Of a stretch of 64,000 nt of DNA, positions 1,113 through 39,141 are shown in pieces. The stretch is from IMG/VR virus record IMGVR_UViG_3300030673_000007; one strand, given 5' to 3'. The stretch comes from an uncultured virus (IMG/VR IMGVR_UViG_3300030673_000007). Taxonomy: Duplodnaviria > Heunggongvirae > Uroviricota > Caudoviricetes. Position 1 is the stretch's first letter. Every line of letters begins with the position of its first letter. A program made the position numbers and the translations under genes. The notes below the pieces were generated by a model that saw only the letters and a list, made by a program, of their open reading frames with translations, did not search any database and had not been told where the DNA came from.

Positions 1113-1230
1113 CAGTTTCAGAATCTTCCTCAGTTCCCACGCAGGAGGATCCGCTGAACAAGGCGTACTAATCCCAGACAGGGCAAGGCCCCCGGTTCGA
1201 TGATGAGCCGGGGGCCGAGCTGTGTGTGGA

Positions 1231-1533
1231 TCAGGCTGCATAGGCATCGACCAGACCCGGGTTGAGGTAGGTGTGCTTCTGGAACAGGTGGAGGATCCAC
1301 CCGTCACGGACGACGTTGCCCTTGGCGTCCCACTGCTTGACCTCGATGCCCCCCATGATGTCTGCTCCCGGCCAGTAGCGCAGGCGGGCGCTGATGTCGG
1401 ACACGTTGCCGTCCCAGTACCTGATGGCGTCTTCCAGCTTGTCGAAGGTGGTGGGTTCGGGAAGCTCGATGGCTTCGACGATGGCGGTCAGCTCGATGCT
1501 GACCTTGTACTCGTTGCGGACTGGAGTGTTCAT
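1231..1533 (-). CDS. Hypothetical protein
   Basis: ORF with strong codon bias. Confidence 0.75.
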   Translation of the reverse strand: MNTPVRNEYKVSIELTAIVEAIELPEPTTFDKLEDAIRYWDGNVSDISARLRYWPGADIMGGIEVKQWDAKGNVVRDGWILHLFQKHTYLNPGLVDAYAA

Positions 1534-1536
1534 GGC

Positions 1537-1614
1537 TCAGACCTCCATGGTGCGGCGGGAGACGGTGATCCAGATGCCGAGGATCCGGATCCTGCGGGTG
1601 GTGGTGACCTTCAT
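1537..1614 (-). CDS. 25-aa peptide MKVTTTRRIRILGIWITVSRRTMEV
   Basis: Follows promoter and conserved GAAGGGCAACAGCC-ATG leader. Confidence 0.55.
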   Translation of the reverse strand: MKVTTTRRIRILGIWITVSRRTMEV

Positions 1615-1647
1615 GGCTGTTGCCCTTCCTTGATTGGGTATGTACCT

Positions 1648-1677
1648 AGCTTAAGGCATGTACCTAGCTTGTGTCAA
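1648..1677 (-). promoter_or_regulatory. Early sigma-A-type promoter with internal direct repeat
   Basis: TTGACA-N18-TAAGCT; AAGCTAGGTACAT occurs twice. Confidence 0.85.
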
Positions 1678-1692
1678 GTGGTTTTGAGAAAC

Positions 1693-1998
1693 TCAGTCGT
1701 GCTCCCAGTAGCTGCCGCCGTTGGGGCAGAACCCGTCCGTGTTCTCGAAGTCCGTGCGGCGCACGAGGCACCCGGTGTCCTTCACGTGGGTGCGTACGTC
1801 GGACAGGGCGAGCTTCCAGTCCATGGGGGCAGGCTCCTGTGCCGCCGCTGCGGCGAGCTGGGGTGTGTGAGTGGTCCTGCGGGAGCGGGCTACCACGATG
1901 GTCACGGTGGCCCACACGGCACAGAGCAGGGCGACCCCGGCATGTCCCATGGTCAGCAGGCCGATGGCCAGCGCGTACAGAACGAGGGAGAGCTTCAC
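1693..1998 (-). CDS. Membrane protein with Cys-containing C-terminus
   Basis: Two N-terminal hydrophobic segments; GTGA overlap. Confidence 0.7.
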   Translation of the reverse strand: MKLSLVLYALAIGLLTMGHAGVALLCAVWATVTIVVARSRRTTHTPQLAAAAAQEPAPMDWKLALSDVRTHVKDTGCLVRRTDFENTDGFCPNGGSYWEHD

Positions 1999-2210
1999 GA
2001 ACAGACCTTCTTCTTGAGGTGCTTGCGCCCGTGGTGCTTCATGAGAGCGATGAGGCGATCAGGGGTGGACTCGAAGTAGCTGATGCCATTGACGTCCGTG
2101 ACCCTGTAGACCGTGCCTGAGGGCACGAAGACGATGTTCAGGCCCATGAAGCGGTCGACCTTGATGCACTCGGGGTTGAGTGTGTAGTTCAGAGGGGGGG
2201 CTGTGTTCAT
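1995..2210 (-). CDS. Hypothetical protein, leaderless
   Basis: ATG 6 nt after -10 box. Confidence 0.75.
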   Translation of the reverse strand: MNTAPPLNYTLNPECIKVDRFMGLNIVFVPSGTVYRVTDVNGISYFESTPDRLIALMKHHGRKHLKKKVCS

Positions 2211-2216
2211 GTCTCT

Positions 2217-2245
2217 AGCTTAGGCCATGTAGCTGCCGCTGTCAA
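2217..2245 (-). promoter_or_regulatory. Early sigma-A-type promoter
   Basis: TTGACA-N17-TAAGCT-AGAGAC-ATG; TTTCAGGAAA at 2249-2258. Confidence 0.85.
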
Positions 2246-2250
2246 GCGTT

Positions 2251-2424
2251 TCAGGAAACGAACGCTGCCTGCATCCCGAGCTTCACGTCGAGGATCGTCG
2301 AGTCCACGTACTGCGTGATCAGGCGCTCAGCGACGGCGAACTCACCCAACACGATGGTCTCGCTGATCGAGTAGAACGCCACGATGCGGTCGAGCGCGGT
2401 GAGGCGGACAAGGGCGGTGGTCAT
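2251..2424 (-). CDS. Hypothetical protein
   Basis: ORF with GAGAGG RBS; start uncertain (2424 or 2451). Confidence 0.6.
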   Translation of the reverse strand: MTTALVRLTALDRIVAFYSISETIVLGEFAVAERLITQYVDSTILDVKLGMQAAFVS

Positions 2425-2502
2425 GATGGTGCCTCTCGTTTTCAGAATCATCTATGGGTGCAACCCGGCGTGGCCCGAGGATCACTCCCCGGGCCCAGCT
2501 GG

Positions 2503-2925
2503 CTACTTGGTGAAGTCGTAGTACTCGTCGCGGTGACCCACCCGAAGGATGGTGCTTCCCATCCGGAGGCTGCACCCGTCGGGGGCCTTGTCGTTCAGCT
2601 CGGCGTACACGTTGCGGAAGGGCTTGCCGTTCACGCTCTTGAACACCTCGCCGATGTCCTCGGAGAACGGGACGTCAAGCGGGGGCTCGGTGGTGAACTC
2701 GTAGTCCTGTGACTCGGAGAAGCCGTTGCTGTCGGTGCGCCGTGCCTTGTCCCTGCTGGCCCTGATGGTGATGGTCTTCCCACTGGGGCTGACCGTGACC
2801 GTGCGTACCGTGTAGGCGTGCCTGTCGCTGTAGAGGAACATGGTGGCCCCATCCCCCACTGAGGGGACGGTGGTGACCGCTGCGCCTTCCTGCATCCTGT
2901 TGATGAGCCCGCCGTAGAACTTCAT
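2503..2925 (-). CDS. Hypothetical phage protein (GDGAT...SDRHAYTV...YYDF)
   Basis: ORF with GGGAG RBS and codon bias. Confidence 0.75.
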   Translation of the reverse strand: MKFYGGLINRMQEGAAVTTVPSVGDGATMFLYSDRHAYTVRTVTVSPSGKTITIRASRDKARRTDSNGFSESQDYEFTTEPPLDVPFSEDIGEVFKSVNGKPFRNVYAELNDKAPDGCSLRMGSTILRVGHRDEYYDFTK

Positions 2926-2926
2926 G

Positions 2927-3127
2927 TCAGTTCTCCCGTTCCATGTTGAAGGAGCCAACAGTCTGGCCGTTGAGGTCCACGAGGGTCCCAGCGAACTGGC
3001 CCTCCTTGACGTGCTTGGCTGCGATGTTGAGGAGGCGGTTCAGCTCCCACTCAGGGGAGAACACTTCCTGATCCTGTCCGTCATAGAACGCTGACCCTGT
3101 GGCCTTGATGGTGAGTGTGAACTTCAT
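2927..3127 (-). CDS. Hypothetical phage protein (..DLNGQTVG..)
   Basis: ORF downstream of promoter and conserved leader. Confidence 0.75.
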   Translation of the reverse strand: MKFTLTIKATGSAFYDGQDQEVFSPEWELNRLLNIAAKHVKEGQFAGTLVDLNGQTVGSFNMEREN

Positions 3128-3167
3128 GGCTTCTGCCCTTCGGTTGTTGTTCCGGCTTGATGTCTCA

Positions 3168-3260
3168 AGTTTATGGCATGTACCTAGCTTGTGTCAAGCG
3201 AATACTCGATCAATCTTTTTCTGGAAACGACTTGCTATACGCGCGGGCGTGTACTAAGCT
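3168..3260. promoter_or_regulatory. Divergent pair of early sigma-A-type promoters
   Basis: Minus: TTGACA-N18-TAAACT (3197-3168). Plus: TTGCTA-N17-TAAGCT (3232-3260). TTTCTGGAAA between them at 3218-3227. Confidence 0.8.
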
Positions 3261-3266
3261 AGAGAC

Positions 3267-3440
3267 ATGAACAAGCCGCAGCCCAGCAACCGGAAGTGCA
3301 CCGTCGCGACCATCACCGATGCAGCAGACGACATCGAGTTCACGTGGACCGAGTGGGCCGACGAGGACGTCATCGAAGCCGCAGAGGCAGCTGTCGAGGC
3401 CCTCAGGGCGCTCGCCAACACGATCCAGAACAGGAAGTGA
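3267..3440 (+). CDS. Hypothetical protein, leaderless (MNKPQPS..., 57 aa)
   Basis: ATG 6 nt after TAAGCT; not in ORF track. Confidence 0.65.
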   Translation: MNKPQPSNRKCTVATITDAADDIEFTWTEWADEDVIEAAEAAVEALRALANTIQNRK

Positions 3441-3442
3441 CC

Positions 3443-3685
3443 ATGAACGCGATCATCACCTCCCCGGGGGCTACGACCTACAAGGGCGAGACCTACCGGT
3501 TGGAGCGCAGGGAGATCTGGAGCCCCAGCTCGCGCACCGGCACCCGTGTGGTGTGGTGCTGGGAGATCAAGTCCGGCCCCGGGCGTGGGGACTACGGAGG
3601 CAAGTGCGGATCCAAGCGTGAGGCCGAGACCACGGTCAAGCGCGCGATCCGCGCCTACGCAGCAGAGGAGGCAGCCAAGAAGTGA
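3443..3685 (+). CDS. Hypothetical protein (MNAIITSPG...)
   Basis: AGGA RBS, codon bias. Confidence 0.7.
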   Translation: MNAIITSPGATTYKGETYRLERREIWSPSSRTGTRVVWCWEIKSGPGRGDYGGKCGSKREAETTVKRAIRAYAAEEAAKK

Positions 3686-3697
3686 GCCCAGCTCACG

Positions 3698-3731
3698 GCC
3701 CCTCGTTCCTTCGGGAGCGGGGGGCTTCTTC
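3698..3731 (+). terminator. Intrinsic terminator-like hairpin
   Basis: GCCCCTCGTTCC-TTCG-GGAGCGGGGGGC followed by TTCTTC. Confidence 0.6.
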
Positions 3732-3961
3732 ATGCCCAGCTGGAGCTGCACCGGTTTTCTGAACCAGCTCGGTGCAGGGATCCACGCACGCTCGTCGAGG
3801 CGGAGCTGCGCCCGCAGTGTTTCAGAATCTTCTCGGGCTCCCCTCCCAGTAGGGAACGCTCGAACAAGGCGCACTAATCACTCGCCACTAATCCGGAGCT
3901 GAACGTGGAAGACCCCCCGCTCCCGGTCGAAGGGGAGAGCGAGGGGCCTGTCCAGCGTAGC

Positions 3962-4159
3962 TCAGTCGAAGGGCCACACCAGCCCGGCACGCCTGATCGA
4001 GGCGCGGAGGTTCTTGTCTGCCCGGTGGTCGGAGGGAGTGAGGTGGAAGGACGTCGAGGTGATGCCGTCGGGGAAGCCGACCCACCAGCCGCAGTGCTTC
4101 CGCTTCATCGTGCACCCTTGGGCCTCCAGCGAGGCTGCAAGGGCTGCGTAGCGCTTCAC
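3962..4159 (-). CDS. HicA-like protein
   Basis: 65 aa basic protein with HLTPSDHRADKNLRASIRRAG, the signature of actinophage HicA-like proteins. Confidence 0.65.
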   Translation of the reverse strand: MKRYAALAASLEAQGCTMKRKHCGWWVGFPDGITSTSFHLTPSDHRADKNLRASIRRAGLVWPFD

Positions 4160-4371
4160 AGGAGGGGGGCTGCGTGGGCGAGGTCACCGACGGCTGCGAG
4201 GCGCTCCTGAATGCTCAGGGCGAGGTCGGAGTAGGGCTGCACGATCAGGCTGACCGGCTTGCGTCCCGGGGCTGCTGCCTTGAGGAGGAGCGTGTTGTCG
4301 GGACGGTGCCATTCGAGGATGGTGAGGTCGCCGTCGAGGTAGGTGGTGTCGGGTTCTTGGTAGCTGCTCAT
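4156..4371 (-). CDS. Hypothetical protein, leaderless
   Basis: ATG 6 nt after TACTCT. Confidence 0.7.
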   Translation of the reverse strand: MSSYQEPDTTYLDGDLTILEWHRPDNTLLLKAAAPGRKPVSLIVQPYSDLALSIQERLAAVGDLAHAAPLL

Positions 4372-4377
4372 AGGTAA

Positions 4378-4469
4378 AGAGTACCAAGCTAGGGACAGAC
4401 TGTCAAGGGTTATTTCAAGAAACTAATGTCCAGATTGGCTTGACTATGCGCGTGCGTGTGTACTAAGCT
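4378..4469. promoter_or_regulatory. Divergent pair of early sigma-A-type promoters
   Basis: Minus: TTGACA-N17-TACTCT (4406-4378). Plus: TTGACT-N18-TAAGCT (4440-4469). TTTCAAGAAA at 4413-4422. Confidence 0.8.
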
Positions 4470-4510
4470 AGAGACATCAAGCCGGAACAACCTACCGAAG
4501 GGCAACAGCC

Positions 4511-4936
4511 GTGAAGATCCACTCCGACGTACTGACCAGCGCGAACCTGCGCACCGCCACCACCTACCGGGGCATGACCGGTGTCCACCTCTCCGAATGG
4601 ATCACGCGGGGCTCCCGCTCCCGGGCCCGCTCCTTCGACGTCAAGCTCACCGGCAACAGCCCCAGCCGCCCGAACTTCGGCGCAGGCGAGGGCGACGACC
4701 ACGCAGCCCGCTGGGATGAATGGGGCATCTTCATCGAGTACCTGTTCACCATCGATCCGGAAGCCATCGTGGGGGTCTACAAGGACTACGAGACGTTCCG
4801 CAAGGTGACCGGTGGCCGCTTCGACACCCTCACGGGTGACCAGACCCACCGCAGGCACAAGTGGGTCCCGAACGGCGACTACACCGCCAACTGCTCCTGT
4901 GGGGCCTTCACCGCTTGGGGGCCTGCCGCTGAATGA
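4511..4936 (+). CDS. Hypothetical phage protein
   Basis: Conserved leader GAAGGGCAACAGCC-GTG; codon bias. Confidence 0.8.
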   Translation: MKIHSDVLTSANLRTATTYRGMTGVHLSEWITRGSRSRARSFDVKLTGNSPSRPNFGAGEGDDHAARWDEWGIFIEYLFTIDPEAIVGVYKDYETFRKVTGGRFDTLTGDQTHRRHKWVPNGDYTANCSCGAFTAWGPAAE

Positions 4937-4951
4937 CACAGACCGTGGATG

Positions 4952-4977
4952 CACTCCCCCCTTCGGGGGGGAGTGTT
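4952..4977 (+). terminator. Terminator-like hairpin
   Basis: CACTCCCCCC-TTCG-GGGGGGAGTG. Confidence 0.65.
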
Positions 4978-5020
4978 CTGCGTTGTGCCCTAAGTTGTCG
5001 AGGTTGTTTCTCGAAATGAC

Positions 5021-5049
5021 TTGACGTAGGGACAGTGGTGTACTAAACT
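5021..5049 (+). promoter_or_regulatory. Early sigma-A-type promoter
   Basis: TTGACG-N17-TAAACT; TTTCTCGAAA at 5007-5016. Confidence 0.85.
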
Positions 5050-5089
5050 TGAGACATCAAGCCGGATCACCTACCGAAGGGCAGCAGCC

Positions 5090-5722: not shown

Positions 5723-5723
5723 C

Positions 5724-6002
5724 ATGGCCAAGGTCAAGACCATCGGCGACCGCAGCCGCGACGGCTTGCTGGAGATCATGGACACCAGCGTGAGCAATGA
5801 GGGCATCCACCGTGTGACCATCCGGGAGACGGTAGGCGGCAACTGCCTGATCGGTGGCTTCCCGGAATCCAAGGCCCGCACGCTGGCCAAGGCGACGATG
5901 AAGGGTGCCAACCGGACCAGCATCGTCAACCGCTTCACGTACCACACGTGCGAGTACGTCACCGTCGAGGTGTGGAAGCGGGAGGTCATGCCGCACAACT
6001 GA
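5724..6002 (+). CDS. Hypothetical protein (MAKVKTIG...)
   Basis: AGGA RBS directly after previous stop. Confidence 0.7.
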   Translation: MAKVKTIGDRSRDGLLEIMDTSVSNEGIHRVTIRETVGGNCLIGGFPESKARTLAKATMKGANRTSIVNRFTYHTCEYVTVEVWKREVMPHN

Positions 6003-6126
6003 GCACGGACAGTGGGAAGGGCTCGGGGAGAGATCCTCGGGCCCTTGCCTTGCGTTCACTTGTCGTACTGACACCGGCCACGGTATCAGTCTTCTGGCCC
6101 CTGCGCTAGTTCTTCAGAATCTTCTC

Positions 6127-6880: not shown

Positions 6881-6994
6881 ATCTCTTCCTCCACAGGGTG
6901 CGGGTGATGGCGGTGATCTGACAGAGGGAAGCAAGAACAAAAGCACCAGTCAGGAACCAGTTGGCCATTGCTCTCCCCCCAGAGTTGATACGCC

Positions 6995-7405
6995 TCAACC
7001 TCCCGTGAACTCACCATCGAGCTTCACGAACTCCCCGGGGTGCTTGACCTTCGTTGCGCCGTACTCGCGAAGAAGGCGGGACTCCTCAGAATCTTCCTGC
7101 ACTGGGTGGTGCCTGCGCCAGCAGTTGATGAAGTCGATCTCGGCCAGTGCGATGAGGGCCTCGAAGTCGGTGAGCTGAAGCCGGGCTGCGGCATCGACGG
7201 CGAGGTCGGCAAGGAGTGCCTCGGGCTTGCCTGCGTCGAACAGGATGACCATGGGCCTGCCGTTGGCCAGCTGGGCGTCGAGCCTGCTCACTTCCCCGGT
7301 GGAGCACCACCAGTAGTGCTTGACCCACACCACGCCGGAGGTGTCGAGGAGCACCGACGCATCGACCAGCTCGGCGAGATCGGCCTCGGAGATCACAACC
7401 CTCAC
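6995..7405 (-). CDS. Hypothetical protein
   Basis: ORF with GTGA overlap. Confidence 0.7.
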   Translation of the reverse strand: MRVVISEADLAELVDASVLLDTSGVVWVKHYWWCSTGEVSRLDAQLANGRPMVILFDAGKPEALLADLAVDAAARLQLTDFEALIALAEIDFINCWRRHHPVQEDSEESRLLREYGATKVKHPGEFVKLDGEFTGG

Positions 7406-8367
7406 GGCAGCAACCAGCTACCAGCGGAGCCCTGTGGGGGGTCCACGGGCTCAGCAGCACCTTCCGTGGGTACTGGTATGGGTCCGGGGCTGGGAGGGGC
7501 TGAGATCGAAGAATCTGCCTCGTCCTTGGCGATCTGGGCCTGTGAGCGGAAGTCTCCGAAGAGCACCCCGCCGAAGTTCTCGGACACGACCACGCCCTTC
7601 TCCGGGCCGAAGTGGGCCTGTCCGACGTTCCGGGTGAGTGCGATTCGTCGATCCCCCTCGGCCATGGCTTCCTCAAAGTGGGCCTGTCCGACGTCGAAGC
7701 CGTGGAAGGGCTCCCGGATGAAGCCACGAGAGCTGATCTGCCCGCTCCTGTCGACGATCCCCACCGGGCGGGTGCCATTCATCCGCGAGGTGAGCACGAC
7801 CTTCTCCAACACGCCCTCGGAGTCGAAGACCGGCTCGGCGAAGATGACGGTGCCGGGAGCGAAGGAGTGTTCCTCGATGCGCCGGAGCTTCTCAGAATCT
7901 TCTTCGGCCTTGTCAGAGCCGGATTCGTTTCCCGAAAGGTCGTCGAGACCTCTGGAGCTGCGCTGCTCCCGGACCACGGCCACCGGGTCCCGCCAGTCGA
8001 GGAGGGGCCGGGGCTCGAAGATGTCCGCCGTCATGGCGGCATGCGCTTCCTGCCACGCCGAGTTGATGTTGGCCTGTGCCCGCTCGACGATCCCCACCAG
8101 CTCCTCATCGGACTTGTCCAGCCAGTCCAGCTCACCCCACACGCTGGCCGCGAGGTCCTCAAGGTTGGCGATGTCCTCGGGGTACGGGTGTGCCAGCCAG
8201 CGTTCGGTGGCCAGAGCGCGTGTACGGGCAGTGGAGGAGGACTCGATCCACGGGCAGGGGTGGTAGATCGTGCTGATCCCGCCGTTGGACCACACGCAGC
8301 CCTCCACGAGGATCTGGGCGAGGTTGTCCCGGTTGCGGATGAAGAAGCGGCGCGGCGGAGTGGTCAT
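7402..8367 (-). CDS. Hypothetical protein, probably leaderless from a middle promoter
   Basis: ATG at 8367 follows CGTATCAAC; internal VGQAHF repeat. Confidence 0.7.
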   Translation of the reverse strand: MTTPPRRFFIRNRDNLAQILVEGCVWSNGGISTIYHPCPWIESSSTARTRALATERWLAHPYPEDIANLEDLAASVWGELDWLDKSDEELVGIVERAQANINSAWQEAHAAMTADIFEPRPLLDWRDPVAVVREQRSSRGLDDLSGNESGSDKAEEDSEKLRRIEEHSFAPGTVIFAEPVFDSEGVLEKVVLTSRMNGTRPVGIVDRSGQISSRGFIREPFHGFDVGQAHFEEAMAEGDRRIALTRNVGQAHFGPEKGVVVSENFGGVLFGDFRSQAQIAKDEADSSISAPPSPGPIPVPTEGAAEPVDPPQGSAGSWLLP

Positions 8368-8459
8368 GGTTGTTGATACGCCGGGGGAAGAAGGATCCGC
8401 AAGGCGGGTGCGTTCAGAATCATCTTCGGCGGGGCGGAGCCGGTGGGGCCATTCGTCCA

Positions 8460-9539: not shown

Positions 9540-9556
9540 GTTTGTTGATACGCCGT

Positions 9557-9856: not shown

Positions 9857-9964
9857 GTGGGGGAGTCTACACACACGTTTGCCGGGGTGAGTGCACGGAC
9901 GTTTTGGGAATCTGAGATCAGCTCGGAAATGAACTTTCGAGAAACGAGGTGGTGGGGTTCAGAA

Positions 9965-10198
9965 TCATGTCCGGTTGAGGCGGGTGATCTCGGCGGTGTG
10001 CACGCGGGTGTTGAAGACGATCCGGGTGGTGGGCGGGTAGTCCCGGTCGTACGACTCCAGCCAGCGCTGCTGGTACGGCTGGAGGTTGACCCCGAGCTGG
10101 CGGCAGTAGGCGACGAACCTGCTCTTGCCCTGCGGGGTGCGGGGCTCGGGGAGGCGGTCCATGCCGAAGCGGGCGCGGAGCTTGCGTGGGGAGGTCAC
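9965..10198 (-). CDS. Hypothetical protein
   Basis: GTGA overlap. Confidence 0.6.
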   Translation of the reverse strand: MTSPRKLRARFGMDRLPEPRTPQGKSRFVAYCRQLGVNLQPYQQRWLESYDRDYPPTTRIVFNTRVHTAEITRLNRT

Positions 10199-14401: not shown

Positions 14402-14695
14402 CAGCTTGGGTGCCTTGCCCCGTGGGCGGTCGGCGAGGCGCTGGAGCACGGTGGCCCAGTTCTCGGCCTGCCATGCCTCCCATGCCCCTGCTCCGGCCTT
14501 GCTGACCACCTTGTGGCGGAAGACCTCCTCCAATGCGTGGTCGTGGTGGAACTTCAGGGCGTAGTCGACGTCGATCTCCACGTACTCCCGGCACTCGACG
14601 CACCACGCGAACGGAGGGTGCTCCCCGGCGTGAGCCACGAAGGCGCGGTCGACCGGGTGGTGGGTGCACTGCTCGGGCGGGATGCTCAGAATCAT
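14387..14695 (-). CDS. Hypothetical protein (CxH...CxxC)
   Basis: ORF, codon bias. Confidence 0.65.
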   Translation of the reverse strand: MILSIPPEQCTHHPVDRAFVAHAGEHPPFAWCVECREYVEIDVDYALKFHHDHALEEVFRHKVVSKAGAGAWEAWQAENWATVLQRLADRPRGKAPKLLTPH

Positions 14696-14698
14696 CTC

Positions 14699-18703: not shown

Positions 18704-19014
18704 CAGGCCTCCTCAGAATCATCTTCGGTGTTGACGGTGATCGTGTACTGGCCATCGAGCCGGATCCACTGCTCGCCGGAGCCGAACACGGGGGCGGCGC
18801 AGATCGTGTCCCGGCGCAGGTCGAGGTCCGACAGCTGGGCGTCCCGGTACACCATGGTGGCGTTCGGAGCGGCGAGGAGGGCCACCTTGCCGTCTTCCAA
18901 GAGGATCTCCATGGTCAGGCTCAGGCCCCTGATCGGGGGCTGTGCCGAGACGAAGCCCTGAGGCAAGTGGGTGTCCCTGTGGTGCAGCTGAGCTGCCTCG
19001 AATCCCTCGGCCAT
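18703..19014 (-). CDS. Hypothetical protein
   Basis: TGATG overlap. Confidence 0.65.
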   Translation of the reverse strand: MAEGFEAAQLHHRDTHLPQGFVSAQPPIRGLSLTMEILLEDGKVALLAAPNATMVYRDAQLSDLDLRRDTICAAPVFGSGEQWIRLDGQYTITVNTEDDSEEA

Positions 19015-32872: not shown

Positions 32873-33907
32873 TCACCAGAACGCCACGACAACTTCGAGC
32901 AGACCCGTTGTCTGCCCGGAGCGGTAGGCCTCGTCGACCACGGCCAGCGTCCTGCGGATCGCGAGCCTGCGCTTGGCGTTGTAGTGCTTGGAGACGTTCA
33001 TCAGCTCGGTGAGCAGGAACGCCTGCGGACCCAGAGCCTTGGCCATGTCGCCGGGTGACTTGTGGTCCACCTGCATGTCATGGATCATCCCAGCCTTGTC
33101 GAGCTTCGCGTCCAGCAGGCCGATGATGCGCCCGACCTCCTCGCGAGGGATCGACTCGGCGGCGAGCAGTGCGGTCTTGCGGTCCAGCGCCAGCAGGGCG
33201 TCGGTGAAGCTGTCCCGGGGCTGCTCGGCCAGCAGGGTGTTGACCACTGAGATGGTGATCTCACCGGGGAACACGGCGAGCTTCAGGCAGATGTCGCGGA
33301 CCAGCCGCAGGTTCCAGTTCGAGCGGGTGAGCAGGTGCCGGGCGATGCCGTCCCGCATGGGGGCCTTCGACTGGACCCACTCCACGGAGCGCAGCGCGGT
33401 GGCCGAGGTGAACGGCTTGCACTCCACCACGTGGCCCTTGGATCCGATACAGGCTATGTGCGGGAGGGGCTCCGGGCGGGTACCGTGTCTGCGCTCCTCC
33501 GGGGTGGGCTCGGTCTTCGGAACAGCCGCCTCGGAGGAGACCATGACCACGTAGGTCCGGGGGTTGCGCGAGCGGTCCTTGACCCACTGCACGAAGCGGT
33601 CCCACTCATGGATCTTCTCGACGTGCCGGACGATCACCAGCCGGGGTGAGGTGTCCATCGGGTGCTGGTCCAGCGCGGCCCAGATGTCCCGCTCAGAATC
33701 ATCTCCGGCCACGAGGCTGACCCGGTTCCACGGCTCGGGGGCGAGGAACTCCGAGACGCTCCGGACGACCTCCTCCACAAGCACGACCTCCGGCCCGCAC
33801 ACCCACGTGATCTGCCGGGGCTCAGGGGTCTTCTTGGTCCCGGTCAGCCAGCCACTGAAGGTGGCGATGTCAGACCTCCCTCTTCTTACGAGGACGACGC
33901 TTAGCAT
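32873..33907 (-). CDS. DNA polymerase III delta (HolA)-like clamp-loader subunit
   Basis: WVCGPEVVLVEE, RLVIVRHVE, NLRLVRDICLKL, FTDALL; start uncertain. Confidence 0.7.
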   Translation of the reverse strand: MLSVVLVRRGRSDIATFSGWLTGTKKTPEPRQITWVCGPEVVLVEEVVRSVSEFLAPEPWNRVSLVAGDDSERDIWAALDQHPMDTSPRLVIVRHVEKIHEWDRFVQWVKDRSRNPRTYVVMVSSEAAVPKTEPTPEERRHGTRPEPLPHIACIGSKGHVVECKPFTSATALRSVEWVQSKAPMRDGIARHLLTRSNWNLRLVRDICLKLAVFPGEITISVVNTLLAEQPRDSFTDALLALDRKTALLAAESIPREEVGRIIGLLDAKLDKAGMIHDMQVDHKSPGDMAKALGPQAFLLTELMNVSKHYNAKRRLAIRRTLAVVDEAYRSGQTTGLLEVVVAFW

Positions 33908-35397: not shown

Positions 35398-36062
35398 GAC
35401 TCGAAGACCTCATGGATCTCGGCGCGCAGGGCCTTCAGCCGGTTCCGGATCGTGGTCTCGGAGACCTCGAAGTACTGGGACAGGATTTCAACGTTGGGGC
35501 TGCCGTAGGTGACCGAGTGCTCCAAGGTCATGTTGAACAGGTCCAGCATCTCGCAGCGGCCCCGGGGGTCGGAGAGGGTGGCAAGGTGGTCCTGCACGGT
35601 GAGGACGGCATCCTCGATCATCAGCTGATCGTAGGTGTCGACGTGGGTCTCCCCGTAGTAGTCCATCCACGTGTTGTCGTCACCGGCTGGTGCGTCGAGC
35701 GAGATGGCCTCGCGAGCCTTGGTGATGATCTGGCGGTCCCGGTGGTGCCGGACGTAGATCTTGACGAAGCCGGACAGGAAGGTCCGGAACATGGCCTTGC
35801 GGGTGACCCCACCATGGGTGGAGGTGAACTCGGGGTTGAAGTCGGCCAGCACGTCGTGGGCGAAGAACTTCTCAAGGATGGACATGGTCACGTCCGCACA
35901 GCTCTGGGAGTCGATGCCGGACTTGAAGACGATGCCCCGGACGTAAGGGTAGTAGTGGTCGAACAGCTCGGTGTAGTTGGCTGGGACGAAGTCCGGATAC
36001 CTCGACGATGAGGGCCTTCCGGCCTGCGTGATGGTGCGGGGGGAAACGGTAAGACTGGGCAC
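35394..36062 (-). CDS. ECF-type sigma-70 factor
   Basis: Region 2-like ELFDHYYPYVRGIV..ADVT..FRTFL; region 4 HTH ILSQYFEVSETTIRNRL; GGAGG RBS before GTG at 36062 (alternative TTG at 36119). Confidence 0.7.
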   Translation of the reverse strand: MPSLTVSPRTITQAGRPSSSRYPDFVPANYTELFDHYYPYVRGIVFKSGIDSQSCADVTMSILEKFFAHDVLADFNPEFTSTHGGVTRKAMFRTFLSGFVKIYVRHHRDRQIITKAREAISLDAPAGDDNTWMDYYGETHVDTYDQLMIEDAVLTVQDHLATLSDPRGRCEMLDLFNMTLEHSVTYGSPNVEILSQYFEVSETTIRNRLKALRAEIHEVFES

Positions 36063-36209: not shown

Positions 36210-36239
36210 AGTATATCCGACCATGAGGCGTAGTGGCAA
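36210..36239 (-). promoter_or_regulatory. Sigma-A-type promoter for the ECF-like sigma gene
   Basis: TTGCCA-N18-TATACT. Confidence 0.7.
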
Positions 36240-36288
36240 CGGGAGTGAAGCTGTGTCTGACCATAGCCCTGAGGGGTGACATATGCAA

Positions 36289-36531
36289 CTAACGTCTGCG
36301 ATCCGGGCGTGTCACAAGCAGCTCCTCCTGAAGCTCGGAAAGAGCTACCACATAACTCGGTTTGGTGCCAATGCGACACACCGTCTTCCAGCCACCCATT
36401 TTGCCCTCATTGGCCAAACGTGCACGTCGGTACGCGTGCTGTCGGGAGATGCCCAAGATCTCTGCGGCCTCGGTGAGGTTGACCCAGCCCTCCAGCTGGG
36501 GGAGGTTCCCCAGCTTCTCGTCCGTGCTCAT
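36289..36531 (-). CDS. HTH DNA-binding protein (excisionase/MerR-like)
   Basis: VNLTEAAEILGISRQHAYRR. Confidence 0.75.
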   Translation of the reverse strand: MSTDEKLGNLPQLEGWVNLTEAAEILGISRQHAYRRARLANEGKMGGWKTVCRIGTKPSYVVALSELQEELLVTRPDRRR

Positions 36532-37091
36532 GCCCGTGCCTCCATCGTTGCCTTCATGACCTTCTTGGTGATGCTCAGCCAGTTCGTGGCGTCATCATCG
36601 GTGTGGACCTTGCGGAGGAGAGCGAGGCATTGGGTGAGCTTGTGCGAGACCGCTTCATCGAACTGGCGTTCCTCCCAGTTCGGGACCATTCTGGCGCACG
36701 CAACCTTGAGGGCTTCGGCCAAGTCTGCCGTGTCGACCACTGGCTTCTCGGACATCAGCGCGTCCCACTGATCCTGATAGTTGGGTGCTACGTACCCAGT
36801 CTCCTCCAGCAGGGCCTCCGCTGCATCTTCCTCGGAGATGTCCCTACTGGTGGAGATGAGCTTGACCGGGTCGTAGTAGCCGCACCCAGCGAAGCAGAAG
36901 GCGCTGTTGGACTCGGCGTAGATCCGCATGGATTTCGACATTCCACCGTCCTGATGGAAGATCTCGCCGAAGGGGCAGTAGACCTTCATCGACGCGGCGG
37001 CGTAGTCGCTGACGTTCATCCCGATCATGTTGCAGGCCTTGGTGATCGAGACTCTCTCGTTGGCGATCCGGAGCAGCTCAGCTCTCTCCAC
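36528..37091 (-). CDS. Primase-type CHC2 zinc-finger protein without TOPRIM domain
   Basis: CPF...H.D....S......FCFAGCG. Confidence 0.75.
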   Translation of the reverse strand: MERAELLRIANERVSITKACNMIGMNVSDYAAASMKVYCPFGEIFHQDGGMSKSMRIYAESNSAFCFAGCGYYDPVKLISTSRDISEEDAAEALLEETGYVAPNYQDQWDALMSEKPVVDTADLAEALKVACARMVPNWEERQFDEAVSHKLTQCLALLRKVHTDDDATNWLSITKKVMKATMEARA

Positions 37092-37518
37092 GATGGTTCC
37101 TCAGCTTGAAGAACATCCCGAAGGTGTAGTGGGTGTTCTCAGCCTCGGTCTTCTTCACCTCGGGTCGGCGGACGAAGGTCCCGCCCCGGCGCAGTGACCA
37201 CCAGAAGTTGCCCTGCTCGATCACACCGGTCACCCGCAGGGCCCACAGCAGGAGCATCATCTTCGGCTGGGACATGGGGGTGTCGATGTAGAGGTGACCG
37301 TGCCCACCGTTGGTGCTCGGCACGTAGTGGTGGGGGAAGTCGAGGTCGATGATCGGCGCGTGCTGGCGGGTGCCCAGCAGGTAGGAGGAGACCAGCTCCC
37401 CCTCTGGGTGAGGCTGACGATCCGCGTCCATGTCGTAGCGGATCAGGGAGAGGATCATCGGCTCGTCGACCACGTTGAGCAGGTCCGCGTGCCAGTTGAC
37501 CCGCTCCACGTCAGTCAT
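37078..37518 (-). CDS. Protein with AEP/PrimPol-like DxD and HxH motifs
   Basis: HAPIIDLD...PSTNGGHGHLYID. Confidence 0.65.
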   Translation of the reverse strand: MTDVERVNWHADLLNVVDEPMILSLIRYDMDADRQPHPEGELVSSYLLGTRQHAPIIDLDFPHHYVPSTNGGHGHLYIDTPMSQPKMMLLLWALRVTGVIEQGNFWWSLRRGGTFVRRPEVKKTEAENTHYTFGMFFKLRNHRGES

Positions 37519-37639
37519 CCAGTAGTCCCATCTTCTTGGCCAGCCATGCGAGTGGGAGCACGATGAAGAGGTACACCATGCCGTAGAGAATCGAGAAGAT
37601 GGCCTCAAGGCCTCCCTCGCCGTCGTCGTAATCGCTCAT
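37511..37639 (-). CDS. 42-aa single-TM peptide, leaderless
   Basis: ATG follows CGTATCAAT; hydrophobic core; not in ORF track. Confidence 0.55.
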   Translation of the reverse strand: MSDYDDGEGGLEAIFSILYGMVYLFIVLPLAWLAKKMGLLDD

Positions 37640-37659
37640 ACCTATTGATACGCCTCAGC

Positions 37660-39141
37660 TCAGGCGCTCAGCAGGCTTTCCATGGTGCCGTTGGTGGAGT
37701 AGTCGAGACCACCCGTACCGAGGGCTCCCAGCATCCGCTTGCTGCGGAAGTGACAGGTGGCGTAGTCGACCTCGACGATCATGCCGTTGGCCGTCTCGCC
37801 GTCCCGGTTCTTCAGGATCTGGAAGGTGACGTCGGCGTGCCGGTCGGTGTTGTCGGTGGGGGCCAGCAGGCTGACGATCACGTCGGAGGAGTTCGTCGCC
37901 TCAGCCGTCTCGGAGAGCGCGGCGGACGTGTACTGCCCGAGGTTCTCTGCGGCCTCCCTGTGCTGTCTGGAGACCTGCCACGGGGACACGAAGGCCACTC
38001 CCCGCCCGTTGTCGAAGGCGACCGACAGGAGCTTGGCGTTCTTCAGCACCTCGGCGTACTCCTCCCGGGCCGTGGTGCGTCTGCGCTCGGCGATCAGCAG
38101 CGCGAGGTAGTCGGCGATGACCAGCTTGATGTTGAACTTCCGCTGGATCCGCAGCAGCCTCTGCTCGATGCTGGCGATGCCTGCCGCCCGAGGGACCTGC
38201 GCGATGTAGATCTTGCCGTAGGCGGGGTTCTTGGCGAGGTCGTCGATCACCCGGGGGAGGATGAGTTCCTGCTCATCCGTCAAGGTGCCTGCCTTCAGAT
38301 CCCGGGTGTTAAGGCCCTCGGGTGTCTCGAAGATCGGCAGCTTGGAGTGGCGGGCGATGATCTTGCGGCGGATCTGGGGACGCAGGGTCTCGGTGGTCAG
38401 GAAGACCACGTTCTGTCCCTGCTCCACGGCGGCGCTCCACGCGAGCTGGACGCACAGGGAGGACTTGCCGTCGCTGGAGTAGCCCGCGAGCAGCACCAGC
38501 TCTCCCGGCTGGAGCCCACCGATCTTGCGGTCCAGCTCGTCGATGCCGAACCGGATGCCGGAGGACACACCCTTGAGGCGCGCGTTCTTCCGCTCGGCGT
38601 AGTCGGCCTTCATCTCGGTGGCCTCGTCTGCGAGGTCCCCCTCCGGCGCGTCCTGCCGAACCAGCTCACGGTCGATTTCCTGAAACGATTCCAGCAGGCG
38701 AGCGCGGGCATCGTTGTGGCCCTGATAGGTCTGGTTGTCGATGGTCTTGCCTCGGCGCAGGATCTCCATGGCCTCAGTCAGGGCTTCGCCTGTGGTCTTG
38801 TCGGCAGCCAGCTCGCGCAGCTGCTGGAGGGACCACGCGAACTCAGAATCTTCTGTCGTGGTCTCCGACAGCATCTCGTAGGTCTCGGTGAACAGCTGAG
38901 CCTTGCCCGGCTCCATGCGGCCACGGAGGTTGTCGTCGAGGTACTTCAGCGGCATGACCGCGCCCCCGGTGTAGTCCGAGAAGCGCATGAGCATGGTGAA
39001 GAGGTCGGCGTGGACCTTCTCCGGGAAGTGGGCTGGCGTCAGGTGGGCGACAGCCTTCTCCAGCAGATCGCGCCTGCCCGCCAAGATGGCCGAGAGGACG
39101 ATCTGGGAGTGTTCAGAGGCTGATGCCAACGGACTCTCCAA
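37660..39141 (-). CDS. dnaB: DnaB-like replicative helicase
   Basis: LDRKIGGLQPGEL, AGYSSDGKS, FLTTE, IADYL, ILKNRDG. Confidence 0.9.
   Translation of the reverse strand: MESPLASASEHSQIVLSAILAGRRDLLEKAVAHLTPAHFPEKVHADLFTMLMRFSDYTGGAVMPLKYLDDNLRGRMEPGKAQLFTETYEMLSETTTEDSEFAWSLQQLRELAADKTTGEALTEAMEILRRGKTIDNQTYQGHNDARARLLESFQEIDRELVRQDAPEGDLADEATEMKADYAERKNARLKGVSSGIRFGIDELDRKIGGLQPGELVLLAGYSSDGKSSLCVQLAWSAAVEQGQNVVFLTTETLRPQIRRKIIARHSKLPIFETPEGLNTRDLKAGTLTDEQELILPRVIDDLAKNPAYGKIYIAQVPRAAGIASIEQRLLRIQRKFNIKLVIADYLALLIAERRRTTAREEYAEVLKNAKLLSVAFDNGRGVAFVSPWQVSRQHREAAENLGQYTSAALSETAEATNSSDVIVSLLAPTDNTDRHADVTFQILKNRDGETANGMIVEVDYATCHFRSKRMLGALGTGGLDYSTNGTMESLLSA

What the first reader, a model, noticed from the sequence alone, without database searches (positions are those of the whole stretch)
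1118..38853. Strand-polarised asymmetric 11-mer TCAGAATCWTC repeated 12 times
Seen on the plus strand at 1118, 2442, 3822, 6114, 7086, 7892, 8414, 9959 (one mismatch), 14686, 18713, 33693 and 38843. I found no copy in the opposite orientation and none in the structural region. Inside minus-strand genes it reads GAW GAT TCT GA, giving recurring EDSE/DDSE peptides in unrelated proteins (including DnaB and the delta-like subunit) with T-ending codons rare here. It also occurs intergenically, so selection appears to be on the nucleic acid. Established: asymmetric, orientation-biased intragenic sites are the hallmark of L5-type stoperators and of Chi/KOPS-type signals. Inference: a second protein-binding or RNA-processing signal confined to early and middle genes, possibly for shutting them off.
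Basis: partly seen in the sequence, partly recalled or inferred. Interest (0 to 1): 0.76.

Follow-up and report, generated by a model that had tools for sequence, protein, structure and literature searches.

The report
Polar 12-base phage regulatory motif
A 12-letter DNA word repeated in one direction through the non-structural genes of an uncultured relative of Microbacterium phage Magritte is real and selected as nucleic acid, most likely a protein-binding stop mark for transcription, but its function is untested.

Summary
TCAGAATCWTC occurs 11 times exactly, plus once with one mismatch, on the + strand and never on the - strand.

Nearly all genes lie on the - strand, so the sense reading is (A)[G/C]A[A/T]GATTCTGA[G/A].

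Codon or amino-acid usage does not explain it. Synonymous shuffles give a mean of 0.03 copies in genes against 5 observed. All 5 [ED]DS[ED] peptides in the window are spelled by the motif with rare codons. 7 of 12 copies lie outside called genes, against 8% non-coding sequence.

The flanks carry no -35 box and no hairpin of their own.

Copies are kept in relatives 70-90% identical. A variant, AAGATTCGGAGC, plays the same part in Magritte and G002.

Copies sit at all convergent junctions. They often lie 13-28 nt behind a hairpin. One lies at +1 of an early promoter. Several lie where homology between variants breaks.

Best reading, at 0.35: a stoperator-like, orientation-dependent protein roadblock for transcription of early units. 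Rivals are an RNA-level site, a recombination or nick hotspot, and a -10-like element.

It is a new variant of the repeated asymmetric motifs known from actinobacteriophages. No binder or activity is shown.

The parts
1118..1128 (-). Motif copy, sense reading GAAGATTCTGA. It lies at a convergent junction, 102 nt after the stop of the last - strand gene (1231-1533) and 5 nt beyond the stop of + strand gene 807-1112.
1054..1087 (.). 13-bp hairpin, 30 nt downstream (in the sense direction) of the copy at 1118.
   Evidence: comprc 91772-91805
2442..2452 (-). Motif copy GATGATTCTGA, intergenic. It lies 19 nt after a 10-bp hairpin. It is followed by a Shine-Dalgarno sequence (gagagg) and an ATG 17 nt later.
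2472..2495 (.). 10-bp hairpin ending 19 nt upstream (in the sense direction) of the copy at 2442.
   Evidence: comprc 90364-90387
3822..3832 (-). Motif copy GAAGATTCTGA at a convergent junction, between - gene 4156-4371 and the + block 3267-3685.
6114..6124 (-). Motif copy GAAGATTCTGA at a convergent junction. It lies 2 nt after a TGA that ends the small ORF 6127-6324. A hairpin lies 23 nt downstream in the sense direction.
6067..6090 (.). 10-bp hairpin, 23 nt downstream (in the sense direction) of the copy at 6114. It is conserved with G003.
   Evidence: comprc 86769-86792
7086..7096 (-). Motif copy in gene 6995-7396, at codon 100 of 133, read as EDSE. Homology with the G003 orthologue ends here.
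7892..7902 (-). Motif copy in gene 7402-8367, at codon 155 of 321, read as EDSE. It lies at the border between the conserved N-terminal part and a variable middle part.
8414..8424 (-). Motif copy GATGATTCTGA, intergenic. It lies 35 nt after the stop of the SbcC-like ATPase gene (8460-9539) and 46 nt before the next start. In G003 an HTH_3 gene is inserted directly behind the matching copy.
9959..9969 (-). One-mismatch copy CATGATTCTGA. Its first TGA is the stop of gene 9965-10198. Identity with G003 falls from 38/40 to 23/40 across it.
14686..14696 (-). Motif copy GATGATTCTGA, 2 nt after the stop of 14699-14965. Its ATG is the called start of 14387-14695. Homology with G005 collapses right after it.
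18713..18723 (-). Motif copy in the last codons of 18703-19014 (DDSE, codon 97 of 103). It is directly followed by ggagg and the ATG of 18482-18703. Homology with G005 ends at its last base.
33693..33703 (-). Motif copy in ATPase gene 32873-33907, at codon 68 of 344, read as DDSE. It is kept in G005/G004 and in G006 as GAAGATTCTGA.
38843..38853 (-). Motif copy in the DnaB-like helicase gene 37660-39129, at codon 92 of 489, read as EDSE. It is kept in G005/G004. In G006 the same place reads GAT GAC GGC GAG.

Best explanation
What the motif is. It is a compact, non-palindromic signal. Read on the strand of the genes it is (A)[G/C]A[A/T]GATTCTGA[G/A]. It belongs to the non-structural (early and middle) part of a phage of roughly 125-135 kb related to Microbacterium phage Magritte.

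Shown here:
- It is selected as nucleic acid.
- It always points with local transcription.
- It is enriched outside genes.
- It is kept in diverged relatives.
- It has no partner box and no fold of its own.

Inferred mechanism. It is the binding site of a sequence-specific, probably monomeric, phage-encoded DNA-binding protein that blocks elongating host RNA polymerase in one direction, in the way a stoperator does.
- A polymerase halted against such a block would stop some 14 nt before the site. That stall distance is recalled from work on protein roadblocks and was not tested here.
- With the motif 13-28 nt behind a hairpin, the 3' end of the RNA would then sit within about 14 nt of the stem. 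At the middle gaps (16-24 nt) it would sit 2-10 nt from it, near the spot where a hairpin can release the transcript.
- The motif would therefore seal the ends of the many small early transcription units, back up weak terminators, and shut off read-through into the next unit or into convergent genes. The copy at +1 of an early promoter would act as a plain operator.
- Because it is the only stretch that stays identical in a fast-changing arm, it is also where exchanges between related phages resolve.
For: - Exact and polar: 11 exact plus 1 near copy on one strand and 0 on the other in the window. In G003 there are 19 on the gene strand. The 1 reversed copy lies inside a reversed block that has its own reversed promoters.
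- Nucleic-acid selection: synonymous shuffles give 0.03 against 5 observed. All [ED]DS[ED] peptides (5 of 5 in the window, 9 of 9 in G003) are spelled by it with rare codons.
- Sharp 12-13-nt information block with nothing conserved at -35 or downstream, over 28 unique contexts.
- Position: 7 of 12 copies lie outside called genes, and a copy lies at all 6 convergent junctions examined, 3 in the window and 3 in G003.
- Hairpin spacing: 16 copies in four genomes have a hairpin of 8 bp or more within 120 nt upstream. In 11 of them the gap is 13-28 nt, against 3.2 expected (P 7e-6; the range was chosen after seeing the data).
- In Magritte and G002 the variant AGAAGATTCGGAGC lies behind canonical hairpin-plus-T-run terminators and ahead of the next promoter. 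Little RNA should be made there.
- One copy starts 5 nt after the -10 hexamer of an early promoter in G003.
- The flanks do not keep the motif unpaired in RNA folds: mean z -0.44, n = 28.
- Known precedent: L5-type stoperators are 13-nt asymmetric sites, found in 20-30 copies, oriented with transcription, lying in short intergenic gaps plus an operator at the early promoter. They lose their effect when inverted (passages read in PMC6550527 and PMC9283540).
Against: - No binder was identified. There is no immunity-repressor or integrase family hit among the window's 92 (PHROGs) and 69 (Pfam) proteins, nor among 57 proteins of the G003 arm.
- The two HTH candidates give no useful match to solved structures.
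- No gene follows the motif's distribution among Magritte, G002, G006 and G007.
- The phage looks lytic: no integrase or repressor is annotated among Magritte's 250 features. A stoperator system here would serve a purpose not yet described.
- Six copies sit deep inside genes needed for replication or repair, such as the DnaB-like helicase, an ATPase and an Mre11-like gene. A block there would cut expression of those genes.
- Several copies sit directly in front of a Shine-Dalgarno sequence and start codon, which suits an RNA or translation role equally well.
- At 3 junctions the motif precedes the hairpin, so the hairpin-then-block geometry does not apply there.
- No expression data exist.
Confidence: 0.35

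Rival explanations
1. RNA-level signal. The motif would be read in the transcript by a sequence-specific endoribonuclease or RNA-binding protein, phage- or host-encoded. That factor would cut or cover early mRNAs. The effect would be to remove protective 3' hairpins, create new 5' ends, or block the adjacent ribosome-binding site. This would be comparable to early-mRNA shut-off by T4 RegB or RegA, which is recalled and was not read here.
For: - The sense-only orientation follows local transcription.
- Five copies abut a Shine-Dalgarno sequence with a start 10-17 nt downstream (window 2442; G003 74136 = window 18713; G003 95886, 97025 and 100222), and at a sixth (G003 78163 = window 14686) the called start ATG lies inside the motif.
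- In Magritte the variant contains GGAG, with an ATG 8-9 nt later, at 3 of 11 copies.
- At 5 of 6 convergent junctions the copy lies in the sense 3' untranslated stretch, before a hairpin.
- The motif is an A+T-rich island in 64% G+C RNA.
- The phage encodes a ProQ_C-like protein (window 15856-16230).
Against: - Copies lie behind canonical terminators with T-runs in Magritte and G002, where little RNA should exist.
- The flanks do not favour an unpaired motif (combined Z -2.33).
- Copies at operon ends, with no gene behind them, make no sense for a translational repressor.
- No nuclease candidate was found.
Confidence: 0.25
2. Polar recombination hotspot. The motif would be recognised on one DNA strand by a nuclease/helicase in a Chi-like manner, or nicked like the strand-specific nick sites of phage T5 or Pseudomonas phage tf (recalled, not read here). 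The 3' end produced there would invade a co-infecting relative and copy what lies downstream. This would drive cassette turnover in the variable arm.
For: - Breaks of homology fall at the motif in 7 of 7 site pairs whose flanks differ, and in 5-6 of those 7 the break is on the 3' side. Two further pairs, G003 54006 and 59156 against G005, are conserved on both sides.
- G003 against G005 at 74136 and 78163.
- Window against G003 at 82890, 84435/84456, 84957/85121 and 85763/85813. At 86735/86963 the break is on the 5' side.
- Two of the breaks lie inside open reading frames.
- The motif is nearly invariant, as enzyme recognition sites are.
- The phage encodes UvsX/RecA-like, SbcC-like and Mre11-like proteins.
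Against: - At 11-13 nt it is longer than the 5-8 nt recalled for Chi sites.
- The reversed copy lies in a reversed gene block, and the tie to stop codons, hairpins and a promoter start points to transcription.
- Any sequence kept identical by selection will be where alignments of diverged neighbours appear to break, and most gene borders in this arm are breakpoints anyway.
- The 3'-side bias of 5-6 of 7 is not significant.
- The cluster is not at a genome end in Magritte (84.5-104.5 kb of 133 kb).
Confidence: 0.1
3. A -10-like element read by RNA polymerase itself. [G/C]A[A/T]GAT keeps the A at position 2 and the T at position 6 of the phage's own early -10 hexamer TAAGAT. It would act either as a promoter without a -35 box for a phage-modified polymerase, or as a sigma-dependent pause site on the non-template strand.
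For: - It resembles TAAGAT.
- A purine is conserved 6 nt after the hexamer.
- Five copies are followed at once by a Shine-Dalgarno sequence and a start codon.
- The phage's two other single-block motif classes behave like promoters. GCGTACCAGTA carries a TGCGT box 16 nt upstream, and GGCCGATCTTC lies in the structural region.
- Two sigma-like genes are present.
- The position behind terminators is where promoters usually lie.
Against: - No -35 box, TG extension or other partner is conserved.
- 5 of 12 window copies are inside genes, and 3 point into the ends of convergent genes.
- One G003 copy runs into a terminator stem 7 nt after it begins.
- In Magritte the GGAG that serves as ribosome-binding site would lie upstream of the predicted RNA start.
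- A pause with the active site on the motif would put the hairpin 22-37 nt behind the RNA 3' end, too far for it to act.
Confidence: 0.12
4. Chance, or a by-product of coding for acidic peptides.
For: The motif can be read as E/D-D-S-E, a plausible linker peptide. At the ATPase site the S-E is conserved in all relatives compared.
Against: - Dinucleotide shuffles give 0.09 against 11 observed.
- Synonymous shuffles give 0.03 against 5 observed.
- 7 of 12 copies are non-coding.
- Every [ED]DS[ED] peptide uses the same rare codons.
Confidence: 0.01

Closest known systems
[quoted passage not shown]
   Same: - A short (13-nt) asymmetric site in some 20-30 copies.
- Almost always oriented with transcription.
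- Found mainly in short intergenic gaps, with one site acting as operator at an early promoter.
- The consensus differs between related lineages.
   Different: - L5 sites occur in both arms of a temperate genome and serve lysogenic silencing by a known HTH-plus-stoperator-domain repressor.
- Here no repressor or integrase was found and the phage family looks lytic.
- The sites avoid the structural genes.
- About a quarter of the sites lie deep inside genes in one fixed reading frame.
- Many sites keep a set distance from a hairpin.
Start-associated sequences of Cluster K mycobacteriophages, and the SAS-like and 18-bp asymmetric motifs of Microbacterium phage clusters EF and EC (passages read in PMC3203893 and PMC7302621)
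   Same: - An asymmetric motif of about 13 nt, in 10-20 copies and one orientation.
- Confined to the non-structural half of the genome.
- Conserved in front of unrelated genes, with function unknown.
- The Magritte variant even contains GGAGC, as does GGGATAGGAGCCC.
   Different: - SAS lie 3-7 nt from a start codon and contain the ribosome-binding core.
- Of the 12 window copies, only 2 lie 9-17 nt before a start and one contains the start ATG.
- The window motif has no GGAG.
- Copies also lie at operon ends and inside genes.
PeSL cassettes (early promoter plus stem-loop) of T4-type phages (abstract and outline read in PMC2839356; search listing of PMC4122927)
   Same: A repeated regulatory element scattered through a hyperplastic region of small early genes. 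Insertions, deletions and replacements between close relatives begin and end at it.
   Different: - A PeSL is a composite of a sigma-70 promoter and a terminator.
- The motif here is neither of these. The phage has separate early promoters (TTTCNNGAAA-TTGACA-N17/18-TAAGAT) and separate hairpins.
Chi sites (recalled, no paper read)
   Same: A strand-specific short word that is over-represented and is associated here with one-sided breaks of homology.
   Different: - Longer, at 11-13 nt against 5-8.
- Clustered in one region rather than spread genome-wide.
- Tied to gene ends, hairpins and a promoter.
- One reversed copy lies in a reversed gene block.

Membership tests
L5-type stoperator system | Asymmetric site of about 13 nt repeated many times in the genome. 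| tested here: met
   12 copies in the window and 20 in G003. The information block covers positions -2 to +11 only.
L5-type stoperator system | [quoted passage not shown] | tested here: met
   12 of 12 in the window and 20 of 20 in G003, including the one copy on the other strand, which lies in a reversed gene block. One weak antisense copy of the GGA variant occurs in G002.
L5-type stoperator system | Mostly in short intergenic gaps, plus an operator at an early lytic promoter. | tested here: met
   7 of 12 copies lie outside called genes against 8.1% non-coding sequence. One G003 copy begins 5 nt after the -10 hexamer of an early promoter. However, 5 of 12 window copies are inside genes.
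L5-type stoperator system | A cognate phage repressor (HTH plus stoperator domain) and a temperate life style. | tested here: inconclusive
   No repressor or integrase family was found in the proteins scanned, and none is annotated in Magritte. The two HTH candidates give no match to solved repressors. Fast-evolving small proteins could have been missed.
L5-type stoperator system | A bound site halts elongation only in one orientation. | not testable with these tools
   This needs a reporter assay or in-vitro transcription.
Start-associated sequences (Cluster K) | Lies 3-7 nt upstream of a start codon. | tested here: not met
   In the window, 2 copies lie 9-17 nt before a start (2442, 18713) and 1 contains the start ATG (14686). 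The other 9 are elsewhere.
Start-associated sequences (Cluster K) | Contains the Shine-Dalgarno core AGGAG. | tested here: not met
   The window motif has TCTGA at that place. Only the Magritte/G002 variant has GGAG.
Promoter (sigma-70 or ECF type) | A second conserved box at fixed spacing, and a position upstream of genes. | tested here: not met
   No column outside -2 to +11 exceeds 0.4 bit in 28 contexts. Copies occur inside genes and at convergent ends.
Intrinsic terminator | A G+C-rich hairpin followed by a T-run within the element. | tested here: not met
   The motif has no inverted repeat. Hairpins are separate elements 13-30 nt away.
Chi-like hotspot | A 5-8-nt word with genome-wide skew relative to replication (recalled definition). 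| tested here: not met
   The motif is 11-13 nt and clusters in the non-structural part of the genome. Its orientation follows a local reversed block.
Chi-like hotspot | One-sided stimulation of exchange next to the site. | tested here: inconclusive
   7 of 7 site pairs whose flanks differ break at the motif, 5-6 of them on the 3' side. The sample is small and gene borders are breakpoints in any case.
Known RNA families or tRNA | Match to an Rfam model or a tRNA. | tested here: not met
   0 Rfam matches at gathering score and 0 tRNA genes in the window.

The most novel reading that the evidence does not exclude
The 12-mer is a punctuation mark with two linked jobs. A phage factor reads it on one strand. 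That factor stops RNA polymerase about 20 nt behind hairpins. It also leaves a nick or a protected 3' end at the motif's last base. From that end, replication copies whatever lies downstream in a co-infecting relative. One short word would then both insulate the early transcription units and act as a polar, Chi-like engine of gene-cassette replacement in the variable arm.
Probability: 0.08. Interest if true: 0.8.

Novelty: new variant of a known kind. Interest (0 to 1): 0.5.

Why it matters
Large lytic actinobacteriophages carry arms of dozens of small early genes, and how these are timed and how they turn over so fast is not understood.

This motif offers a handle on both questions:
- It is sharply defined.
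- It is easy to mutate synonymously or to invert.
- It has a sister variant in a cultivated phage (Magritte, on Microbacterium foliorum) in which it can be tested.

If it is a roadblock site, stoperator-type control would extend from lysogenic silencing in Cluster A phages to temporal shut-off in lytic phages.

It also gives a concrete case where a DNA signal forces a peptide (EDSE/DDSE) into unrelated proteins.

Finally, the window's regulatory layout could be read from sequence alone: early sigma-A-type promoters with a palindrome, an ECF-type class, a late class, and this motif. That layout may help to annotate the many relatives found in environmental data.

Tried and rejected
- RNA evidence: no RNA holder is listed among the 24 runs that hold the stretch. 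All four runs laid are contigs, which cannot show RNA ends. The tables were truncated, and contig ends could not be tested against the sites.
- Earlier notes of this scan: nothing by place or by sequence.
- Rfam and tRNA scans: nothing.
- Search for a partner box: none.
- Binder by distribution: tblastn of 163 G003 proteins against Magritte, G002, G006 and G007 found no gene that follows the motif. The only gene shared with Magritte and G002 but weak in G006 is a histone-deacetylase-domain gene.
- Two HTH candidates against solved structures: only a weak RpoE match, E 0.27, for window 35397-36062.
- RNA accessibility: the flanks do not keep the motif unpaired.
- Fifteen more distant relatives found through the capsid protein: 0-5 sense hits each, mostly ordinary K-I-L coding. 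The high-copy motif is therefore lineage-restricted.
- The attempt to test orientation against local genes in G013 and G008 was inconclusive, because my codon model does not fit those genomes.
- Idea that reverse-block transcripts carry the complement of the motif in their 3' ends as an antisense regulator: in 4 of 6 convergent junctions a hairpin lies between the reverse gene and the complement, so this is unsupported.
- GANTC methylation site (GATTC is one): it is symmetric on both strands, so it cannot explain the polarity. Not pursued.
- Complementarity to the tRNA T-loop or to the 16S rRNA tail: only about 5 nt by eye, from recalled sequences. Not pursued.
- Literature: no paper holds 'Microbacterium phage' together with 'Magritte'. 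A six-term search on asymmetric intergenic repeats in actinobacteriophages returned the Cluster K, Cluster A and Microbacterium papers, none of which describes this sequence in the passages I read. Supplementary figures of those papers were not opened.

Full report
**1. The observation**

TCAGAATCWTC occurs 11 times exactly on the + strand of the window, at the coordinates given, and never on the - strand. One hundred dinucleotide-preserving shuffles give a mean of 0.09 and at most 1.

Allowing one mismatch adds 9959 (+) and a single - strand hit at 47299. That makes 13 hits, against 1.64 expected.

The window from 10918 to 64000 is identical to virus record G001. G001 runs on for another 28.9 kb and holds one more copy. 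In the joined 92,858 nt the heptamer TCAGAAT occurs 15 times on one strand and 0 on the other, and 13 of the 15 are motif copies.

**2. What the window is**

It is a tailed phage with 64% G+C. Nearly all genes lie on the - strand. In transcription order:
- Structural genes run from 64000 down to 42335.
- Then come a SNF2-type helicase, a sigma-70-family gene with regions 2 and 4 (39621-40349), a DnaB-like helicase, a clamp-loader-like gene, an HNH endonuclease, DNA polymerase I, a UvsX/RecA-like protein, lysis genes and a topoisomerase.
- An SbcC-like ATPase follows.
- Below about 10 kb lies an arm of small genes, with three short blocks on the + strand.

The closest isolate is Microbacterium phage Magritte (133 kb). 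DNA polymerase is 48% identical over 97% of its length, and gene order is the same.

Read in the sense of the genes, the motif is GA[A/T]GATTCTGA.

**3. It is a nucleic-acid signal**

- Five window copies lie inside called genes. All five are read GAW GAT TCT GAG.
- 1500 synonymous-codon shuffles of the 92 called genes give a mean of 0.03 and at most 2 sense copies.
- Those five are the only [ED]DS[ED] peptides in the window's called proteins.
- In the longer relative G003 all 9 such peptides are spelled by the motif, although GAT, TCT and GAA make up only 15.1%, 4.7% and 13.7% of their codon families.
- The peptide therefore exists because of the DNA word, not the reverse.
- Seven of 12 copies are not inside a called gene, against 8.1% non-coding sequence (P 1.3e-5).

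**4. Anatomy**

I aligned 28 non-redundant copies from the window genome and G003.
- Information is confined to positions -2 to +11: (A)[G/C]A[A/T]GATTCTGA[G/A].
- No other column exceeds 0.4 bit. There is no -35 box, no downstream box and no inverted repeat.
- The motif is nearly invariant. The window has 11 exact copies and 1 near copy on the sense strand, and no further variant within one mismatch there.
- No Rfam family and no tRNA gene match in the window.

**5. Relatives**

- G003 (104 kb) is 99.55% identical to the window genome over 84 kb. It then drops to about 70-77% in patches, in the arm that corresponds to window positions below about 8.5 kb.
- G003 holds 19 copies on the gene strand and 1 on the other strand.
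- That one reversed copy (87853) lies between two - strand genes, behind a - strand hairpin and ahead of a - strand early promoter, so it is sense to its own block.
- G005 and G004 (polymerase 89% identical) keep all 4 copies that fall in the shared part.
- The copy in the ATPase gene is also kept in G006 (59%) and G008. In G013 it reads GAAGATTCGGAC.
- The DnaB copy is absent from G006.
- Magritte has no TCTGA-type copy. It has 11 sense and 0 antisense copies of a sister motif, (A)ACAAGATTCGGAGC or CTAGAAGATTCGGAGC, between 84.5 and 104.5 kb.
- G002 (135 kb) has six sense copies of AGAAGATTCGGAGC-type and one weak antisense hit.
- Fifteen more distant relatives found through the capsid protein have 0-5 sense hits each, mostly ordinary coding.
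- The high-copy signal is thus restricted to two lineages, and each has its own version.

**6. It is not one of the phage's promoters**

The window and G003 carry three separate promoter-like classes.
- Early sigma-A-type promoters: TTGACA-N17/18-TAAGAT and relatives. There are 8 in window 1-20000 against 1.6 expected, and 12 in 20 kb of G003 against 1.8 expected. They are often preceded by a TTTCNNGAAA palindrome and followed by AGAGACATG, so that the ATG lies where transcription should start.
- A second class: TGCGT-N16-GCGTACCAGTA, with the ATG 4 nt later in 5 of 9 copies.
- A third class: GGCCGATCTTC, ahead of structural genes.
- The phage has one clear sigma-family gene and a second, weak candidate at 35397-36062.

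The motif under study differs from all of these in sequence and in position.

**7. Where the copies sit**

- A copy lies at all six convergent junctions examined (window 1118, 3822, 6114; G003 86963, 89177, 94562). In each case it lies on the strand of the main direction.
- Several copies start 1-2 nt after a stop codon, or supply the stop themselves (window 6114, 9959, 14686; G003 93416, 95886, 97025).
- Five copies are followed at once by a Shine-Dalgarno sequence with a start 10-17 nt later, and a sixth (G003 78163 = window 14686) contains the called start ATG.
- One G003 copy begins 5 nt after the -10 hexamer of an early promoter.
- Six unique copies lie deep inside genes, with coding signal in the same frame on both sides.
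- Across the four genomes, 16 copies have a perfect hairpin of 8 bp or more within 120 nt upstream. In 11 of them the gap from hairpin to motif is 13-28 nt. About 3.2 would be expected if the motif could sit anywhere in the free space (P 7e-6, but the range was chosen after seeing the data).
- The spacers of the four cases in the window lineage are unrelated to one another.
- In Magritte and G002 the usual order is terminator with T-run, 11-17 nt, motif, 40-56 nt, then palindrome and promoter.
- At three junctions the motif instead precedes a hairpin, by 23-30 nt.

**8. Breaks of homology**

- G003 and G005 are 87-95% identical up to the last base of the copies at 74136 and 78163. Behind the first the sequences are unrelated. 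Behind the second they are about half identical, until the next promoter restores 97%.
- Between the window and G003, ungapped identity across the copy at 82890 (window 9959) falls from 38/40 to 23/40.
- An HTH_3 gene is inserted directly behind the copy at G003 84456.
- In two orthologous gene pairs, protein similarity is high up to EDSE and is lost or much reduced after it.
- At 86735/86963 the break is on the 5' side.
- In all, 7 of 7 site pairs whose flanks differ break at the motif, 5-6 of them on the 3' side. Two pairs are conserved on both sides.
- A sequence held constant by selection will look like a breakpoint, and gene borders in this arm are breakpoints anyway. This is therefore suggestive, not proof of a recombination role.

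**9. Weighing the mechanisms**

- *Promoter.* Unlikely. There is no partner box. Copies lie inside genes and point into convergent gene ends. One copy runs straight into a terminator stem.
- *Single-stranded RNA site for a nuclease or repressor.* This fits the polarity and the copies beside ribosome-binding sites. It does not explain why the Magritte/G002 copies sit behind good terminators. The flanks also do not keep the motif unpaired (mean z -0.44, combined Z -2.33, n = 28; natural sequence tends to fold more than shuffles, so this is weak).
- *DNA-bound, orientation-dependent block to elongation.* This explains:
  - the polarity;
  - the exactness;
  - the presence both before and after terminators;
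  - the copy at a promoter start;
  - the copies at every convergent junction;
  - the spacing from hairpins.

  On the spacing: a polymerase stopped some 14 nt short of a bound site (recalled from roadblock studies, not tested here) would have its RNA 3' end within about 14 nt of a hairpin that ends 13-28 nt before the motif. At the middle gaps (16-24 nt) the distance is 2-10 nt. Intrinsic terminators release the transcript about 7-9 nt past the stem (textbook knowledge).
- The known model for such sites is the L5 stoperator.
- I put this reading at 0.35, the RNA reading at 0.25, a -10-like pause or promoter element at 0.12, and a recombination or nick hotspot at 0.10.
- No binder was found and no RNA data exist. 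The mechanism is therefore inference.

**10. Comparison with what is known**

- Repeated asymmetric motifs of unknown function are a recognised feature of actinobacteriophages. Examples are stoperators in Cluster A, start-associated sequences in Cluster K, SAS-like motifs in Microbacterium cluster EF, and an 18-bp asymmetric motif in cluster EC.
- This motif meets the tested stoperator features of length, copy number, orientation, intergenic bias and a promoter copy. The defining repressor was not found.
- It fails the two defining SAS features, distance to the start codon and the ribosome-binding core.
- Its place at indel and replacement borders recalls the PeSL cassettes of T4-type phages, but it is neither a promoter nor a stem-loop.
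- I found no paper on Magritte or on this sequence.
- I file it as a new variant of a known kind.

Noticed in passing
window 78-50, 3197-3168, 11852-11823, 12816-12787, 14401-14372, 15380-15351, 16952-16924 (- strand); 5021-5049 (+ strand): Strong sigma-70-type promoters, TTGACA-N17/18-TAAGAT (or TAAACT, TATACT). There are 8 in 20 kb against 1.6 expected. In the G003 map of the same genome many are preceded by a TTTCNNGAAA palindrome 3-4 nt before the -35 box and followed by AGAGACATG. The gene's ATG therefore lies where transcription should start, which suggests leaderless early genes and a dimeric regulator site.
   Followed up: partly
window 19970-19981, 32861-32872, 39582-39593 (written on the + strand as TACTGGTACGCC): A second motif class, in sense TGCGT-N16-GCGTACCAGTA, with the start ATG 4 nt later in 5 of 9 G003 copies. 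It looks like an ECF-type promoter for leaderless middle genes. Copies lie ahead of the dNTP pyrophosphohydrolase-like gene, the DNA polymerase region and the gene after the sigma gene.
   Followed up: partly
window 24439, 57882, 62315 (written on the + strand as GAAGATCGGCC): A third class, in sense GGCCGATCTTC. G003 has 8 copies, 7 of them ahead of structural or lysis-region genes and 6-75 nt before starts, so it is probably the late promoter. Relatives have CCGATATCCCTGA (Magritte), GCCGATACTCC (G002) and AGGCCGATATCACATAG (G006).
   Followed up: partly
window 39621-40349 and 35397-36062 (- strand): One clear sigma-70-family gene (regions 2 and 4). A second 222-aa protein has a weak region-2-like match to RpoE (E 0.27) and a C-terminal HTH. 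Magritte annotates both homologues only as 'DNA binding protein'.
   Followed up: partly
window 1 to about 9960: This arm is only 70-77% identical, in patches, to record G003, which is 99.55% identical over the other 84 kb. Genes are inserted, replaced and re-joined in it. Contigs from four environmental runs break and re-join at many places here, including at promoter sequences near 11832.
   Followed up: partly
window 15856-16230 (- strand); 19017-19502 (- strand): A protein with a phage ProQ C-terminal-like domain, which is a possible RNA binder, and a NADAR-domain protein.
   Followed up: no
L033 12185-13411; L034 2363-3106; L033 4402-4680 (G003 arm, outside the window): The G003 version of the arm carries a histone-deacetylase-domain gene (54% identical to a Magritte gene), an RlaP-like RNA-repair nucleotidyltransferase gene and an HTH_3 gene. 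The HTH_3 gene has no counterpart at the matching place in the window. The stretch holding the deacetylase gene, G003 90.4-94.6 kb, found no match in the composite. The RlaP-like gene at 102.4-103.1 kb lies beyond the part of G003 that matches the composite, so its presence in the window genome is open.
   Followed up: no
window 48386-50914 (- strand): Three tandem paralogous genes of about 270-285 aa behind the tape-measure gene. The DNA copies are 68-75% identical to one another.
   Followed up: no
window 10749-11807 (+ strand): A long + strand ORF picked by my codon scorer overlaps two better-supported - strand ORFs (10776-11249 and 11250-11993; the latter hits DUF6011). It is probably a shadow ORF of the high-G+C sequence.
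   Followed up: partly
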